Below, piece after piece: positions 1,463 through 19,200 of a DNA stretch of 64,000 nucleotides. The stretch lies in assembly GCF_009914755.1 (NCBI RefSeq), contig NC_060945.1; one strand, 5' to 3'. Numbering within the stretch: the stretch's first letter is position 1; each line of letters starts with the position of its first letter. Both the position numbers and the translations under genes were made by a program. Origin of the DNA: the human T2T-CHM13v2.0 reference genome, Homo sapiens. The notes beneath the pieces are model-generated. The model worked only from the letters and a program-made list of their open reading frames with translations. It searched no databases and was not told the DNA's origin.

Positions 1463-1631
1463 CATAAACCCGAAATAAAAGGAAACATGAGTGGAAATTT
1501 CACCTATATCATTGACAAGTTAATTCCAAACACGAACTACTGTGTATCTGTTTATTTAGAGCACAGTGATGAGCAAGCAGTAATAAAGTCTCCCTTAAAA
1601 TGCACCCTCCTTCCACCTGGCCAGGAATCAG
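1463..1631 (+). CDS. IFNAR2: IFNAR2 coding exon 7, end of the second fibronectin type III domain ([11 protein letters not shown]...[11 protein letters not shown])
   Basis: Acceptor tttacag at 1456-1462 and donor CAG|gtatgt at 1631/1632. 169 nt, phase 0 to phase 1. Translation matches human IFNAR2 (ORF 1421..1699). Confidence 0.97.
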
Positions 1632-2320
1632 GTATGTTCATTTTTTTAAATTCATGTTTTGAGTATTCATGCTTTTACTCTGAGGGCAAGCCTATTTAAA
1701 GAAAAGAATCTGAAAAGAATTCATGGAGCACTAAAGGTCTTTCTTCCAGTAAACACCTCACAGAGATGTTTTCTGTTGGTTCGTGTGTATGATCTGGTAG
1801 AGTCACTTTTATATTGTCATACCAAAAAACAATCAGATACTACTCGATGAGATCAGAAATCTTGAAATGGAAACGCTTTTGTTTCAGGGAGTCAGGATTA
1901 AATTCAGCACTGTGTGCCCTTTGTGTGGCCATTGCTGAAGCCAAATGCCAGAAGAGGTGGAGTTGCTTGAGACAGTGGTATACAGTGGCATTAAGGGGTG
2001 AAAAGGTGGAAGCAGCGAGGTTGGGTGCAGTTCATGGATGTGATCTGGCATCAGCTCTCGCTCATAGATGAAAGGAACCCTTGCCAGGGTGTACGAGAAA
2101 ATCACTGATGAAGGCTGAACACCTTTCTGTTACACAGACATCAGAACAATAAACAGTGTGATCCCAAACCTTCTTCCCCTTTGGAGTGAGAACAATCAAG
2201 CCTCGGAACTCCCTGCTGATTGTTTTCTCAGGAAGTAGCCAAGTTTCCACCTGTTTTACCAAAAGTGAGAAGCTATGCAAGTCTCCCTCAAAGAAGCCCT
2301 TCTAAATGTCCCAACCGCAG

Positions 2321-2838
2321 TGTTAGGGGAAAGAGGTCCCAATCCATACCCCAAGAGAGGGTTCTTGGATCTTGCGCAAGAAAGAATTCAGAGCGAGTCC
2401 GTAAAGTGAAAGCAAGTTTATTAGGAAAGTAAAGGAGTAAAGAATGACTACTCTATAGACAGAGCAGCCCCGAGGGCTGCTGGTTGCCCATTTTTATGAT
2501 TATTTCTTGATGATATGCTAAACAAGGGGTGGATTATTCATGCCTCCCCTTTTTAGACCATGTAGGGTAACTTCCTCACATTGCCATGGCATTTGTAAAC
2601 TCATGGTGCTGGTGAGAGTGTGGCAGTGAGGACGACCATCTTGGTTTTGGTGGGTTTTGGCCGGCTTTACTGCCATCTGTTTTATCAGCAAGGTCTTTAC
2701 CAACGGTATCTTGTGCCAACCCCCTATCTCATCCTGTAAGTTACAATGCCTAGACTGTCTGGGAATGCAGCCCAGTAGGTCCCAGCCCCATTTTACCCAG
2801 CTCAAGATGGAGTTGCTCTGGCTCAAATGCCTCTGACA
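2321..2838 (-). mobile_element. MER41A solo LTR (ERV1)
   Basis: Reverse complement starts TGTCAGAGGCATTTGAGCCAGAGCAACTCCATCTTG and ends ...CCAAGAACCCTCTCTTGGGG...TAACA. The AAGGGGAGGCATGAATAATCC junction is the A-type form. Confidence 0.85.
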
Positions 2839-2913
2839 CCAATGGAAGTATCTTTAATGTTCTGATTTACCAGAATAAAAATAAGGTAGGATCTATAAAG
2901 AAATTACTTTAGT

Positions 2914-15060: not shown

Positions 15061-15620
15061 AGCCTGTGCCCCGCGCCTCGCGGGTGGACCCGGGCTGGTG
15101 GGCGGGGCCTGCAGCGGGGTGGGAGCCCGGTCGCCCGGCCCCTCCCCACCCCGCCCCGCCCATCTCCGCTGGTTCCCGGAAGCCGCCGCGGACAAGCTCT
15201 CCCGGGCGCGGGCGGGGGTCGTGTGCTTGGAGGAAGCCGCGGAACCCCCAGCGTCCGTCCATGGCGTGGAGCCTTGGGAGCTGGCTGGGTGGCTGCCTGC
15301 TGGTGTCAGGTGAGGGGTCCGCGGGGAGGGGGCGCGCTTGGGAACCGGGAGGCCCCGCGAGATGCCGCCCCTGATCCCATCCCTGGGCGCCCTGCAAGTG
15401 ACTTAAGAGCCTTCGGGGCCTCGGGAGAGAAGATGCAAACGCCACGGCCGGCTGCTGAGACGCAACTAGGCTGCTGCTGCCGTCGATTCTGTAACAGGAG
15501 AAAGCCCCATCCGCGCCCGGATTACAGACCGTCTGGGCCCTAAACTCAGGGGGAGACTCCCGGCGTCTTTTGATTCCCTGTCCTCCTGCAGCTCTCTGCT
15601 GGCGGGCGTCTAAATAAAGT
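15000..15620. promoter_or_regulatory. IL10RB: IL10RB CpG-island, TATA-less promoter with GC boxes and an overlapping GAS/ETS site
   Basis: High CpG density. GGCGGGGC near 15101 and CCCCGCCCCGCCC near 15149-15161. TTCCCGGAAG at 15173-15182. Confidence 0.88.
15261..15309 (+). CDS. IL10RB: IL10RB exon 1 coding part, signal peptide MAWSLGSWLGGCLLVS
   Basis: tccATGG start context and donor CAG|gtgagg. 49 nt, phase 1. Confidence 0.97.
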
Positions 15621-16279
15621 AGCTTCCCCAAAAGACCCAAGATCCCACCGTGGCTGTCATCTGACCCTTCTGGAGACTATCAGTTCAAGTGGAGGCCCCC
15701 ACCAGTCCCCGAGTGCCCTGACAGCCCTCCCTGACCCCAAGTCTGCCCCCTCAGTGCCAGCCCTCCCTACAGATGTGCCTCCCATCACCCGCTGCACCTC
15801 CCCTCCTTCCGGTTCAGGCCCGAGCACCCTGAAATCTGGATTCTGTCCCCCAGCGCCCCAGCTCCATGGCTTCTAAACCTAAATCCATTGAAACCTTTTC
15901 TGTCCTCTAAATTGACTGCCTAGGTTCCAATAACACCATGGTCACCTCCTTCCTTTCTCATGAACTCTTCCCTGGCCTTCCGGGATACCCCTCCGGTTTC
16001 CCGCCCTGTCAGGCTGTCTCTGCTTGGGACCCTCCTGCTCTGTCAGGTTTCTATGTAGCTAATTGTGATGCCCAAGGCCTTTTCTCTCCTTCCCTGGCAC
16101 TGTTCCTTTGGGGGATTTCAGCCAAACCCTGGCATTAAACACGGGCTATAGGCCCATGACTCGCACATTTATATCTCTCTTGGTACCAGTTGGGTGATGG
16201 GTGGTGGTTTATTATAGTCTTCTACTTTTCTACTTGCATGTAGGTTTCAAATTTTCTTTTCTTTCTTTCTTCTTCCGTT

Positions 16280-19200
16280 TTTTTTTTTGTTTGTTTGTTT
16301 GTTTGTTTGTTTGTTTTTTTGAGACAGGGTTTTGCTCTGTTGCTGTGGCCCAGGCTGGAGTGCAGTGGCTTGATCTTGCCTCACTGCCACCTCCGCCTCC
16401 CGGGTTCAAGCGATTTTCCTCCCTCAGCCTCCCGAGTAGCTGGAATTACAGGTGTGTGCCACTACGCCTGGCTAATTTTTGTATTTTTATTGGAGATGGG
16501 GTTTCGCCATGTTGGCCAGGCTGGTCTCGAACTCCTGACCTCAGGTGATTCACCTTCCTCAGCCTCCCAAAGAGCTGGGATTACAGGCGCGAGCCACCAT
16601 GCCTGGCCAGGTTTCGAATTTTCTATTAAAAGGTTTGAAAATAATTTCTGTCTCTAGCCCACATCTCTTCTTGGTGTGACCTCTGGGCTCATTCATCTGG
16701 CTGTCTCCCTGACATTCCTACTTCAGCCTCTCTCCAGCATCTCCAACCTAATGCAGCTCAAATGGGACTCGTGAGTTCCCCAGCTGAGCTCCAATCGGGG
16801 CACCAGCTGCTTAAGCCCAAAATGGACATTGACCTCAGCTTTTATGCATCAAATGTATCAGGAAGTCTCCAGTTTGTTTTTACGTCTGGAAATATATCTG
16901 AAATCCATGTGCCCACCCTACCCCCTCATAGCTTTCTGCCACCAGACAAATCCAAGGCTCCTTTGTCTGTCCCCATTTTACTCCTGCCCCTCCAGAAATT
17001 TCTCCTCACGGCTGTTCAAAGAAAATCTAGACTCCTCAGCACAGCCAACCTGTCTCTCCCTCCCTCACCCACGTGGCCTTTGAAGACATGGAGCCATAGA
17101 GGAGAACCAAGTGCTGGATGTGGGCTTTTTCATGGGCATCTGTTTTGAGGAGAAAAGTTGTAAATGTTTTTGTCTTATTTTCATAGCATTGGGAATGGTA
17201 CCACCTCCCGAAAATGTCAGAATGAATTCTGTTAATTTCAAGAACATTCTACAGTGGGAGTCACCTGCTTTTGCCAAAGGGAACCTGACTTTCACAGCTC
17301 AGTACCTAAGGTGGGTCTGGCCTCACTATTGGCAGGAACGCACCGGAGGAGCCAGCCCTGGGCTGGTCACTGGGTTGGGCCACAGGAGGAAGGGAGTCTG
17401 ACTACGGTCACCGTGTGACTGTGACAACCCTCAGGGAGCCTCCCTGCCAGCCTTTTGCTGTCTGGGAAATTCTCGTGGCCACCTTTTCTCTTTTAGGTTT
17501 TCTAGTTGTGATGGTTGACGATTTGACTGTTAATCACAGGGCTGCTGGCAGATACAGACATTTTATCATGCGTATGTAGATATAATCAGCCATAGTGGTA
17601 ACCTCATGCTGTGCCCATCCCAGCTTGTTTGTCACAGTTGATATATTTTAAAAGAAAAATACCACTGCTGTCATCTCTAGGTATGAGTAGTATTGCTGGA
17701 AGTCAGCAATGTTGAGTGGATGCTACCCAAGAAACTGAGATATGCAAAGCGGTCAGGAAGCCCCTTGCTACCATATATCACCTGTTCCCCTCCAATGGAT
17801 TATAACATCATGCCCCAGTGCCATGCGCGATGCACATAATTTGCATAATGAGTGCTCAGTTTCTCCGTGGTTCCATCCTGAAATTAAAAGTAAGACAGCT
17901 ACTGACTGTTAAAAACCCCATTCTCGGACAACAGCAGGGGCTGTGAAGGAAGAGTGAGTGTCACCCTAGACGGTCATCTCAGTGGTGATCTGAACGCCCT
18001 CTACCTCTCCTGCCTGTCAGTGTTTCCCTACGCCTGGTGAAGGAAGTCAGTGCCAGCACTCCCTTGGCAGCCTGCCACCATACGCCACATGCTGGACTGC
18101 AGGTGACACACCTTTAGGCCAGGCGCAAACAGCAGCAGGAGGCCCAAGGCTGACAAGCCAACACACCTGCTTTCTGTGTGACTCAGAAACATACGAAGAT
18201 AGACAAGTCCTTCAGTGAGGCAGGAGGAAATTTCTTCCCAGATCCAGCTGTCATTTCACAAAAATCCCCAAGGCCTGCTACATCAGAGAAGAAGTAGAAA
18301 GGTGAATAAGATAGTCCTCGTCTGTGCATTGCTGGCTTTTGTTTTTTAACTTTTAGTTCAAAATAATTCCAGACTAACAGAACATTTCAAAATTTTAAGT
18401 AGAATACAAAGAATTTCCAAATAGCCTACAATCAGATTCACCAATTTTTTTTTTTTTTTTTTTTTTTATGAGACGGAGTCTCGCTCTGTCACCCAGGCTG
18501 GAGTGCAGTGGCGCGATCTCGGCTCACTGCAACCTCTGCCTCTCGGGTTCACGCCATTCTCCTGCCTCAGCCTCCCGAGTAGATGGGAGTACAGGCTCCC
18601 ACCACCATGCCCAGCTAATTTTTTGTATTTTTAGTAGAGACGGGGTTTCACCGTGTTAGCCAGGATGGTCACTATCTCCTGACCTCATGATCCACCCACC
18701 TCGGCTTCCCGAAGTGCTGGGATTACAGGCGTGAGCCACCACGCCCGGCCCAGGTTCACCAATTTTTAATGTTGGTCACATTCTCTCCCTTCCTCTCTCT
18801 CTCTCATGCCCTTTGTGCTGTAATATTTCACTGTGTATTTCACAAGAACAAGGATAATCTCTTACATCACATAGTACAGTGAGAAGCTCAGGAACTTTTA
18901 CATTCATAAAATACTTGTATCTAATTTACAGTCCATAGTCCAGTACTGTCAGCTGTCCCAAGGATTGAAGGAGGGCATACTCTATAATTAATTTTTTTCC
19001 TGATGTGCATTTTCTAGTACTGATTGGCTTTATCATTTGCTTTCTGTGCTGTCTCTACTCAGTCTGAATAGCCACGGAGATTTTACTGTGGAAAATTAAA
19101 TTTCTTCTCTGTCTGTCTGTCTCCCTGTAGTTTTTCTTGTTCTGTGCTGTGCTTTTGGGTTTGTTTGTTTGTTTTTCTTTTTTTTTTTTTTGAGACGGAG

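What the first reader, a model, noticed from the sequence alone, without database searches (positions are those of the whole stretch)
1463..17310. Exact in-frame IFNAR2-to-IL10RB splice would build a four-FnIII chimeric receptor
Seen: IFNAR2 exon 7 and IL10RB exon 1 both end in TCA G|gt (Ser plus a phase-1 G). Joining donor 1631 to acceptor 17187 gives ...[22 protein letters not shown]..., recreating the native IL10RB Ser-Ala junction. The genes are under 1 kb apart and the distal IFNAR2 poly(A) signal is a weak AATACA, which would favour read-through. Established: IFNAR2 is the high-affinity IFN-alpha/beta chain (JAK1), IL10RB is the TYK2-bound shared chain for IL-10/22/26/IFN-lambda, and IFNAR1 has a four-FnIII ectodomain. 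I recall an IFNAR2-IL10RB read-through annotation but no established function. Inference: a roughly 545-aa protein with the IFN-I-binding ectodomain stacked on intact IL10RB could be a decoy, or could tether type I IFN to type III/IL-10 complexes.
Basis: partly seen in the sequence, partly recalled or inferred. Interest (0 to 1): 0.8.

Follow-up and report, generated by a model that had tools for sequence, protein, structure and literature searches.

The report
Known IFNAR2-IL10RB readthrough hybrid receptor
The in-frame splice from IFNAR2 exon 7 to IL10RB exon 2 is real, but it is already annotated and published as the 545-residue hybrid receptor CiDRE, so this is a correct rediscovery and not a new finding.

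Summary
IFNAR2 exon 7 ends ...TCA G|gtatgt at 1631. IL10RB exon 1 ends ...TCA G|gtgagg at 15309. IL10RB exon 2 starts after ...catag| at 17187. Joining 1631 to 17187 keeps the frame open to the IL10RB stop at 45146-45148, which lies in the last exon.

The transcript is already known. RefSeq annotates exactly this coding sequence (NM_001414505.1, hub table). The exon 7-exon 2 junction was PCR- and Sanger-validated in human lung in 2016 (PMC5053695). A 2022 preprint, cited elsewhere as Immunity 2023, named the 545-aa protein CiDRE. It reported long-read transcripts, a splicing QTL, surface expression, stronger IL-10 to STAT3 signalling and IFN-alpha binding without signalling, which makes it a decoy.

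My addition: the frame fit is not luck. IFNAR2 exon 7 and IL10RB exon 5 are homologous half-domains with the same intron phases. These belong to the conserved class II cytokine receptor pattern 1-2-1-0-1-0.

One detail is doubtful. AATACA lies 2 nt from the annotated IFNAR2 end, so it is probably not the working poly(A) hexamer. No canonical hexamer lies nearby either.

Still open: endogenous protein level, IFN-lambda/IL-22 responses, and signalling in human cells.

The parts
1463..1631 (+). IFNAR2 exon 7, the last IFNAR2 exon in the hybrid. It encodes the second half of the membrane-proximal FnIII domain (D2), starts in phase 0 and ends in phase 1.
   Evidence: Sequence and translation. Pfam Interfer-bind positions 57-102 of 104, E 5.6e-10. 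Matches residues 154-209 of the 212-residue IFNAR2 ectodomain chain 1n6u_A.
1632..17186 (+). The 15,555-nt intron removed in the hybrid mRNA. Its donor CAG|GTATGT matches 8 of 9 consensus positions. It contains IFNAR2 exons 8-9, the IFNAR2 3'UTR and poly(A) region, the intergenic gap and IL10RB exon 1.
9399..9529 (+). IFNAR2 exon 8, the transmembrane exon, skipped in the hybrid. Its acceptor is comparatively poor (pyrimidine fraction 0.65) and its donor is weak (TTG|GTAGGT, 6 of 9).
   Evidence: A join of the exon 8 donor to IL10RB exon 2 would shift the frame.
11589..14459 (+). IFNAR2 exon 9 (cytoplasmic domain and 3'UTR), skipped in the hybrid. The acceptor has a long pyrimidine run but the non-consensus AAG.
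14380..14500 (+). IFNAR2 distal 3'-end region. No AATAAA or ATTAAA within 45 nt of the annotated end. AATACA lies at 14452-14457 and AAAAAG at 14426. Two TGTA motifs sit about 55 and 72 nt upstream, and GT-rich sequence lies downstream.
   Evidence: hexamer scan and printed sequence.
14460..15161 (+). 702-bp IFNAR2-IL10RB intergenic gap that runs into the IL10RB CpG-rich promoter. A readthrough polymerase has to cross it.
   Evidence: length, 34 CpG. (GC 0.73 at 15000-15449).
15162..15309 (+). IL10RB exon 1 (5'UTR plus the first 16 signal-peptide codons and one extra base), absent from the hybrid. It ends in phase 1 like IFNAR2 exon 7.
17187..17310 (+). IL10RB exon 2, the acceptor exon of the hybrid. 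Its acceptor is good (pyrimidine fraction 0.82, TAG). It encodes 3 leftover signal-peptide residues and then the start of D1.
   Evidence: Pfam Tissue_fac 22-57. Solved IL10RB chains start at query residue 3.
25389..25546 (+). IL10RB exon 3, the second half of D1.
   Evidence: Pfam Tissue_fac 69-107 of 107, E 5.7e-6; 26.6 bits, just under the curated cut-off of 27 for this fragment alone. Phases.
28545..28711 (+). IL10RB exon 4, the first half of D2.
   Evidence: Pfam Interfer-bind 2-54. Matches IL10RB chains 6x93_C, 3lqm_A and 5t5w_A.
31887..32034 (+). IL10RB exon 5, the second half of D2. It is the homologue of IFNAR2 exon 7 and has the same phases (0 to 1).
   Evidence: Pfam Interfer-bind 59-104. 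Phases.
36897..37054 (+). IL10RB exon 6, which holds the only strongly hydrophobic (transmembrane) segment of the hybrid.
   Evidence: Best Kyte-Doolittle 19-residue windows are at hybrid residues about 441-461 (score 2.75). The maximum near the junction is 0.36.
44975..46010 (+). IL10RB exon 7: cytoplasmic tail, stop codon at 45146-45148, 3'UTR, and ATTAAA 29 nt before the end.
   Evidence: The preprint's reverse cloning primer matches 45127-45148 on the minus strand exactly.

Best explanation
This is the known IFNAR2-IL10RB readthrough (conjoined-gene) mRNA.

How the transcript forms. RNA polymerase II starts at the IFNAR2 promoter and sometimes fails to be released at the non-canonical IFNAR2 3' end. 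It then runs through the 702-bp gap and the IL10RB promoter. The strong exon 7 donor at 1631 has not yet paired with the weak exon 8 acceptor or the AAG acceptor of exon 9. It pairs instead with the good IL10RB exon 2 acceptor, which lies 2.7 kb past the IFNAR2 end. IL10RB exon 1 is skipped because a first exon has no acceptor.

Why the join is in frame. Both genes keep the class II cytokine receptor intron-phase pattern 1-2-1-0-1-0. In that pattern the two-domain ectodomain module is flanked by phase-1 introns.

The product. It has 545 aa: the IFNAR2 signal peptide and both IFNAR2 FnIII domains, then a Pro/Gly-rich linker of roughly 15-18 residues that retains 3 residues of the IL10RB signal peptide. 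Complete mature IL10RB follows, with two FnIII domains, a transmembrane segment and a cytoplasmic tail. The tail is TYK2-binding by recalled knowledge. The stop codon is in the last exon, so the mRNA should escape nonsense-mediated decay.

Function. According to published overexpression experiments, the protein reaches the cell surface, strengthens IL-10 to STAT3 signalling and binds IFN-alpha without signalling (a decoy).

Shown here: the sites, the frame, the domains and the phases. Taken from papers: existence of the junction, surface expression and function. Inferred: the kinetic competition among acceptors and the weak termination.
For: - Splice sites and translations.
- Open frame of 365 residues in the window, with one terminal stop.
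- Stop in the last exon.
- Donor and acceptor descriptors.
- No canonical poly(A) hexamer near 14459, whereas IL10RB ends carry ATTAAA or AATAAA at -22 to -29.
- Pfam: IFNAR2 exon 7 = Interfer-bind 57-102; IL10RB exon 5 = Interfer-bind 59-104; exons 2-3 = Tissue_fac; exons 4-5 = Interfer-bind.
- PDB identity of the exons.
- Family phase pattern 1-2-1-0-1-0 stated in PMC8863823 (passages) and computed for IL10RB.
- Junction validated by PCR and Sanger sequencing, frame maintained: PMC5053695 Table 2 (passages).
- CiDRE preprint, sections 7 and 8 and passages: long-read capture transcripts, splicing QTL at rs13050728, 1638-nt coding sequence, surface expression, pSTAT3 gain with IL-10, IFN-alpha binding without pSTAT3.
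- The preprint's cloning primer maps onto the stop codon.
- NP_001401434 numbering.
Against: - No RNA or protein data could be examined here. Junction usage rests on the annotation and the papers.
- Abundance looks low. In PMC5053695 each IFNAR2-IL10RB junction was seen by RNA-seq in 1 of 64 lung samples, and validated readthroughs were 'generally low'.
- The functional tests in the preprint are overexpression of the human protein in HEK293 cells and in murine alveolar macrophages. I found no endogenous-protein or mass-spectrometry evidence in its main text ('mass spectrometry' had 0 occurrences; both hits for 'endogenous' were about blocking steps).
- The 'no IFN signalling' result used human IFN-alpha on mouse cells and read out pSTAT3 only.
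- The weak-termination step and the acceptor competition are my inference from crude site descriptors, not from a validated splice or poly(A) model.
Confidence: 0.88

Rival explanations
1. The chimera is real, but physiologically it is a minor by-product of leaky termination plus phase-compatible exons. The disease association at this locus would then act mainly through IFNAR2 or IL10RB expression, not through the hybrid protein.
For: - Low abundance in lung: each junction seen in 1 of 64 RNA-seq samples, levels 'generally low'.
- About 40% of validated readthroughs keep the frame anyway (17 of 43), so an open frame alone is weak evidence of function.
- The same SNP, rs13050728, is described as the peak cis-eQTL of the IFNAR2-IL10RB region in PMC7612986 (figure legends only).
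- The review PMC13501980 notes that most chimeric mRNAs are not functional.
Against: The preprint reports colocalisation of the junction splicing QTL with the COVID-19 severity signal (PP-H4 0.96). It reports no eQTL effect of rs13050728 on IL10RB in the two monocyte/macrophage QTL cohorts (DICE, EvoImmunoPop). It also reports gain of IL-10 signalling on expression of the hybrid.
Confidence: 0.3
2. The readthrough matters at the RNA level. Polymerase running through the IL10RB promoter interferes with initiation there, so the main effect is less canonical IL10RB rather than a new protein activity.
For: - A readthrough polymerase must cross the IL10RB CpG-island promoter.
- The preprint states that IL10RB and CiDRE expression are 'mutually exclusive'. 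It also reports lower IL10RB in the T/T genotype, which has more chimera, by qPCR of PBMC-derived macrophages (n=22).
- Transcriptional interference by readthrough is a described mechanism (abstract of PMC13501980).
Against: - The same preprint found no significant eQTL effect on IL10RB in the two monocyte/macrophage QTL cohorts (DICE, EvoImmunoPop).
- Expressing the hybrid cDNA alone changes IL-10 signalling.
Confidence: 0.1
3. The hybrid is a signalling cross-wire, not an inert decoy. Type I IFN bound to its IFNAR2 module would recruit IFNAR1, or would modulate IL10RB-containing IFN-lambda, IL-22 or IL-26 complexes, and so give altered JAK/STAT output.
For: - The hybrid keeps essentially the whole solved IFNAR2 ectodomain and all of mature IL10RB.
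- The only negative test I saw used human IFN-alpha on murine cells with a pSTAT3 read-out. IFN-lambda and IL-22 were not tested.
Against: The preprint's structural model places the cytoplasmic domains of the hybrid and IFNAR1 too far apart. The hybrid lacks the IFNAR2 cytoplasmic domain, which is encoded by the skipped exons 8-9.
Confidence: 0.1

Closest known systems
IFNAR2-IL10RB readthrough / CiDRE (RefSeq NM_001414505.1, NP_001401434; Mitsui et al., bioRxiv 10.1101/2022.09.30.510331, cited as Immunity 2023;56:1939)
   Same: Identical. Same donor exon (IFNAR2 exon 7), same acceptor exon (IL10RB exon 2), same coding parts in the window (hub table), same length of 545 aa, and the cloning primer lands on the same stop codon.
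   Different: Nothing in the sequence. The published hg38 junction span (33252830 to 33268394) is 8 nt longer than the span in this assembly (1631 to 17187). I attribute that to small indels between assemblies and did not check it.
IFNAR2(exon 7)-IL10RB(exon 2) readthrough in normal lung (Pintarelli et al. 2016, PMC5053695)
   Same: Same junction. It was PCR- and Sanger-validated and the frame is maintained. A second junction, exon 7 to exon 3, is reported as out of frame. My script agrees: a stop after 9 further codons, 602 nt before the last exon junction.
   Different: That paper made no protein or function claim. It reported lower levels in adenocarcinoma than in matched normal lung.
Soluble IFNAR2 isoform (exon 8 skipped)
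   Same: It uses the same exon 7 donor. Joining it to exon 9 at 11589 is open for only 3 more codons. The result is an IFN-binding ectodomain without the IFNAR2 signalling tail.
   Different: It is secreted rather than anchored through IL10RB, and it has no IL10RB module. The isoform's name and length are recalled, not taken from a call.
IFNAR1 (four-FnIII class II cytokine receptor)
   Same: Two tandem D1-D2 modules. The IL10RB exon 2 peptide weakly matches solved IFNAR1 chains at residues about 4-38 and about 203-240 (E 1.5e-4 to 7e-4; no stretch passed the threshold on its own). That fits an internal duplication of the same module.
   Different: In IFNAR1 the duplication is fixed in the genome. 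Here the tandem arrangement is made at the RNA level from two genes, and the outer module is the high-affinity IFNAR2 binding unit.
TWE-PRIL (TNFSF12-TNFSF13) and other in-frame conjoined-gene proteins
   Same: Intergenic splicing between adjacent same-strand immune genes gives a bifunctional fusion protein. It is cited as a precedent in PMC5053695 and is listed beside IFNAR2-IL10RB in PMC12831279.
   Different: It is a ligand fusion, not a receptor fusion, and belongs to an unrelated family.

Membership tests
Readthrough (conjoined-gene) chimeric transcript | Two adjacent genes on the same strand with a short intergenic gap | tested here: met
   IFNAR2 ends at 14459 and IL10RB starts at 15162, both on the + strand (hub table). 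The gap is 702 bp.
Readthrough (conjoined-gene) chimeric transcript | Canonical GT donor of an internal upstream exon joined to the AG acceptor of exon 2 of the downstream gene | tested here: met
   CAG|gtatgt at 1631 and catag|CAT at 17187.
Readthrough (conjoined-gene) chimeric transcript | Junction actually present in RNA | not testable with these tools
   No RNA data are available here. The junction is reported by PCR/Sanger sequencing (PMC5053695) and by long-read capture sequencing (preprint section 7). RefSeq lists it as a BestRefSeq model.
Class II cytokine receptor family (CRF2) | Ectodomain module of two FnIII domains (Pfam Tissue_fac + Interfer-bind) | tested here: met
   IL10RB exons 2-3 hit Tissue_fac and exons 4-5 hit Interfer-bind. 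IFNAR2 exon 7 hits the C-terminal half of Interfer-bind. IFNAR2 D1 and the first half of D2 lie outside the window and were not tested.
Class II cytokine receptor family (CRF2) | Conserved intron phases 1-2-1-0-1-0 | tested here: met
   IL10RB computed as 1-2-1-0-1-0. The IFNAR2 part in the window gives 0-1-0. The pattern is stated in PMC8863823. The upstream IFNAR2 introns were not testable.
Class II cytokine receptor family (CRF2) | A single transmembrane segment followed by a JAK-binding cytoplasmic tail | tested here: inconclusive
   There is one strongly hydrophobic segment, at hybrid residues about 441-461. TYK2 binding is recalled knowledge and was not tested.
CiDRE / NP_001401434 | IFNAR2 exons 2-7 plus IL10RB exons 2-7; 1638-nt coding sequence; 545 aa | tested here: met
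   The window part is 1098 nt and 365 aa. The numbering offset of 220 between IL10RB and the hybrid gives 545. The coding-sequence length is from the preprint's figure S6E legend. IFNAR2 exons 2-6 are outside the window.
Decoy receptor | Binds ligand at the cell surface without transducing its signal and lowers the ligand available to the signalling receptor | not testable with these tools
   This is the published claim only: IFN-alpha associated with CiDRE-expressing cells, with no pSTAT3. I did not see reduced type I IFN signalling through IFNAR1/IFNAR2 demonstrated in the passages I read.

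The most novel reading that the evidence does not exclude
The hybrid is not an inert decoy but a cross-wiring receptor in human cells. Type I IFN captured by its outer IFNAR2 module could recruit IFNAR1 into a TYK2/TYK2 pair. 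Alternatively, the captured IFN could change how the inner IL10RB module engages IFNLR1, IL-22RA1 or IL-10RA, so that type I IFN tunes IFN-lambda, IL-22 or IL-10 output.

A related prediction follows from the phase rule. The other same-strand neighbours in the cluster (IL10RB to IFNAR1, IFNAR1 to IFNGR2) could form further in-frame stacked receptors. The search listed only papers whose titles and abstract starts concern narcolepsy or COVID-19 genetics; I opened none of them.
Probability: 0.1. Interest if true: 0.6.

Novelty: already known. Interest (0 to 1): 0.15.

Why it matters
The hybrid links two opposing arms of antiviral immunity in one molecule: type I interferon capture and IL-10-family signalling. 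It has been tied to a COVID-19 severity locus. That significance is already in print, so this report adds no new entity.

The report adds three things:
- A sequence-level reason why the join is in frame: the shared class II cytokine receptor intron phases. This also predicts which other joins in the cluster would be open or closed.
- A correction to the poly(A) hexamer assignment.
- A list of what the published tests I could read leave open: endogenous protein level, IFN-lambda, IL-22 and IL-26 responses, and signalling in human rather than mouse cells.

Tried and rejected
- The final Immunity 2023 paper is not held. I read only the preprint's sections 7 and 8 and passages. Its supplements (for example table S5 with the transcript models) are closed.
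- I did not fold the hybrid or test complexes. The spliced protein is not a contiguous translation of the window, and handing it to a tool would have meant typing a joined sequence.
- The shared TCAG as a meaningful coincidence: rejected. CAG is the donor consensus, and only the phase and the final G matter for the Ala codon.
- AATACA as the working IFNAR2 poly(A) hexamer: doubted, because it lies 2 nt from the annotated end.
- PMC11919593 (chimeric RNAs in COVID-19 blood) mentions IFNAR2 and IL10RB only as separately expressed genes.
- PMC8136003 uses 'IFNAR2-IL10RB' in its abstract as a locus name (listing only). PMC7612986 uses it as a locus name in its figure legends.
- The search for 'IL10RB-IFNAR1' / 'IFNAR1-IFNGR2' listed 10 of 11 papers. 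Nine are about narcolepsy and one is a COVID-19 case report. By title and abstract start none is about a readthrough transcript, and I opened none.
- rs13050728 lies about 9.9 kb upstream of the donor by hg38 arithmetic. It is therefore outside this window and could not be examined.

Full report
**Observation.**
- IFNAR2 exon 7 (1463-1631) ends GAATCAG followed by gtatgt.
- IL10RB exon 1 ends GTGTCAG followed by gtgagg at 15309.
- IL10RB exon 2 starts at 17187 after ttcatag.
- Exon 7 translates in frame to 56 residues ending PPGQES. IL10RB exon 1 gives 16 residues ending LLVS. Exon 2 continues LGMVPPPENVR after a split codon whose first base is the G left over from the donor exon. The split codon G|CA is Ala with either donor, so the native Ser-Ala junction is recreated.

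A script that joined the annotated coding parts by coordinate gave 1098 nt, 365 residues and a single terminal stop. The stop at 45146-45148 lies in the last exon, so the mRNA is not a predicted target of nonsense-mediated decay. The gap between the genes is 702 bp.

**Size.** The window holds 365 of the residues. A table quoted in PMC11339918 numbers NP_001401434 so that its V241 is V21 of IL10RB. That is an offset of 220, which puts the last IFNAR2 residue at 236 and the total at 545. The CiDRE preprint gives a coding sequence of 1638 nt and a model covering residues 27-545.

**What it is.** Pfam on single-exon translations gave the following:

| Exon | Pfam match |
|---|---|
| IFNAR2 exon 7 | Interfer-bind, positions 57-102 of 104 |
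| IL10RB exon 2 | Tissue_fac, 22-57 |
| IL10RB exon 3 | Tissue_fac, 69-107 (26.6 bits, just under the curated cut-off of 27 for this fragment alone) |
| IL10RB exon 4 | Interfer-bind, 2-54 |
| IL10RB exon 5 | Interfer-bind, 59-104 |

PDB sequence searches support the same picture.
- Exon 7 is residues 154-209 of the 212-residue IFNAR2 ectodomain chain 1n6u_A. The crystal constructs stop four residues before the exon end.
- IL10RB exon 4 matches the solved IL10RB chains.
- Solved IL10RB chains begin at the third residue of the exon 2 translation.

So the hybrid carries essentially the whole structured IFNAR2 ectodomain, then a Pro/Gly-rich linker that keeps three residues of the IL10RB signal peptide, then complete mature IL10RB. 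Only one strongly hydrophobic segment exists, at hybrid residues about 441-461, and nothing hydrophobic sits near the junction. No second membrane span is created, and signal-peptidase cleavage at the junction is unlikely; the latter is an inference. The four-FnIII description is supported, but IFNAR2 D1 and half of D2 lie upstream of the window and rest on the annotation.

**Why the frame fits.** This is not a coincidence that needs a special explanation. IL10RB has intron phases 1-2-1-0-1-0. This is the conserved pattern stated for interferon receptor genes in PMC8863823. IFNAR2 exon 7 and IL10RB exon 5 cover the same part of the same Pfam domain and both run from phase 0 to phase 1. The following transmembrane exons both run from phase 1 to phase 0. 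The two-domain module is thus flanked by phase-1 introns in both genes. A donor at the end of one module therefore fits an acceptor just after the signal peptide of another.

The same rule sorts the other possible joins:
- Exon 7 to IL10RB exons 2, 4 or 6: in frame.
- Exon 7 to exon 3: shifts the frame and stops after 9 further codons, 602 nt before the last junction.
- Exon 8 donor to exon 2: shifts the frame.

This agrees with PMC5053695 Table 2, which lists exon 7-exon 2 as frame-maintained and exon 7-exon 3 as not. The shared TCAG is mostly the donor consensus CAG and carries no weight by itself. Of the 8 annotated donors I tabulated, 2 have CAG.

**How the join probably arises (inference from site descriptors).**
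- The exon 7 donor matches 8 of 9 consensus positions.
- The exon 8 acceptor has a pyrimidine fraction of 0.65, and its donor matches 6 of 9.
- The exon 9 acceptor has a long pyrimidine run but AAG.
- The IL10RB exon 2 acceptor has a pyrimidine fraction of 0.82 and TAG.

Exon 7 therefore already has alternative partners. Joining it to exon 9 at 11589 leaves only 3 more codons, which fits the soluble isoform (the isoform name is recalled). IL10RB exon 2 lies 2.7 kb beyond the IFNAR2 end.

The IFNAR2 end has no AATAAA or ATTAAA in its last 45 nt, and the only AATAAA of the 3'UTR is at 12975. The three IL10RB ends carry ATTAAA or AATAAA at -22 to -29. That is too close for it to direct cleavage there. 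The site more likely depends on upstream TGTA motifs and the GT-rich downstream sequence visible; their role is recalled knowledge. IL10RB exon 1 is skipped because a first exon has no acceptor. PMC5053695 notes the general habit of readthroughs to land on exon 2.

**What is already known.**
- RefSeq annotates the gene IFNAR2-IL10RB with exactly these coding parts (hub table).
- PMC5053695 (2016) found both junctions by RNA-seq, each in 1 of 64 lung samples. It validated them by PCR and Sanger sequencing and measured the exon 7-exon 2 form by qPCR. The median normal-to-tumour ratio was 1.90, P = 1.5e-5, n = 25.
- The preprint 10.1101/2022.09.30.510331 (sections 7 and 8 and passages read) reports the following:
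  - a splicing QTL of rs13050728 on this junction, colocalising with COVID-19 severity (PP-H4 0.96);
  - two long-read transcripts sharing one coding sequence;
  - translation and surface expression in HEK293 cells;
  - stronger IL-10-induced pSTAT3 and Ace2 induction in transduced murine alveolar macrophages;
  - IFN-alpha binding without pSTAT3.
- The preprint names the protein CiDRE and calls it a decoy for type I IFN.
- Its reverse cloning primer matches the window once, at 45127-45148 on the minus strand, exactly on the stop codon.
- Later reviews cite the work as Immunity 2023;56:1939. I could not read that version or any supplements.

**What remains open.** In the preprint's main text I found no stimulation with IFN-lambda or IL-22 and no endogenous-protein or mass-spectrometry evidence. 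The negative IFN result used human IFN-alpha on mouse cells with pSTAT3 as the read-out. Abundance in lung appears low. Three rival readings therefore survive at modest probability:
- The chimera is a minor by-product, and the locus acts through IFNAR2 or IL10RB expression.
- The main effect is interference with the IL10RB promoter. The preprint calls the two 'mutually exclusive' and reports lower IL10RB in T/T cells.
- The hybrid is a cross-wiring receptor.

None of these changes the identity of the feature.

**Verdict.** Novelty: already known. Interest is low for a scan whose aim is new biology. The small additions here are the intron-phase explanation, the poly(A) correction and the explicit list of untested predictions.

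Noticed in passing
window 13729-14459 (and 11589-12066): The acceptor of the alternative IFNAR2 last exon at 13729 (ggaggttgcag|TGAGCC) lies inside a sense-oriented Alu in the IFNAR2 3'UTR. Exon 11589-12066 ends at a GT, so some transcripts splice out an intron from within exon 9.
   Followed up: partly
window 56973-57679 and 57764-58970: The alternative IL10RB downstream exons have good acceptors and AATAAA 22-24 nt before their ends. They reach 12.9 kb past the main IL10RB end, towards IFNAR1. If fed from the exon 5 donor they would give IL10RB forms without a transmembrane segment and with 35-40 novel residues. The table does not say which donor feeds them.
   Followed up: partly
window 1631 (exon 7 donor): One donor has three in-frame fates: exon 8 (membrane IFNAR2), exon 9 at 11589 (a 3-codon tail, soluble form) and IL10RB exon 2 (the hybrid). 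Joins to 11356 or 13729 give 5- and 12-residue tails.
   Followed up: yes
window 17189-17308 versus solved IFNAR1 chains: The IL10RB exon 2 peptide weakly matches IFNAR1 chains at two places, residues about 4-38 and about 203-240 (E 1.5e-4 to 7e-4). This fits IFNAR1 being an internal duplication of the same two-domain module.
   Followed up: no
window 867-920; 43859-44481: There is an (ATCT) microsatellite of 13.5 copies in IFNAR2 intron 6. Two tandem 314-bp Alu-like units lie just upstream of IL10RB exon 7.
   Followed up: no
window 14850-15600: The IL10RB promoter is a CpG-rich island (GC up to 0.73). It is shared head-to-head with the annotated divergent lncRNA IL10RB-DT (14427-15055, minus strand), whose 3' end overlaps the last 33 nt of IFNAR2.
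   Followed up: no
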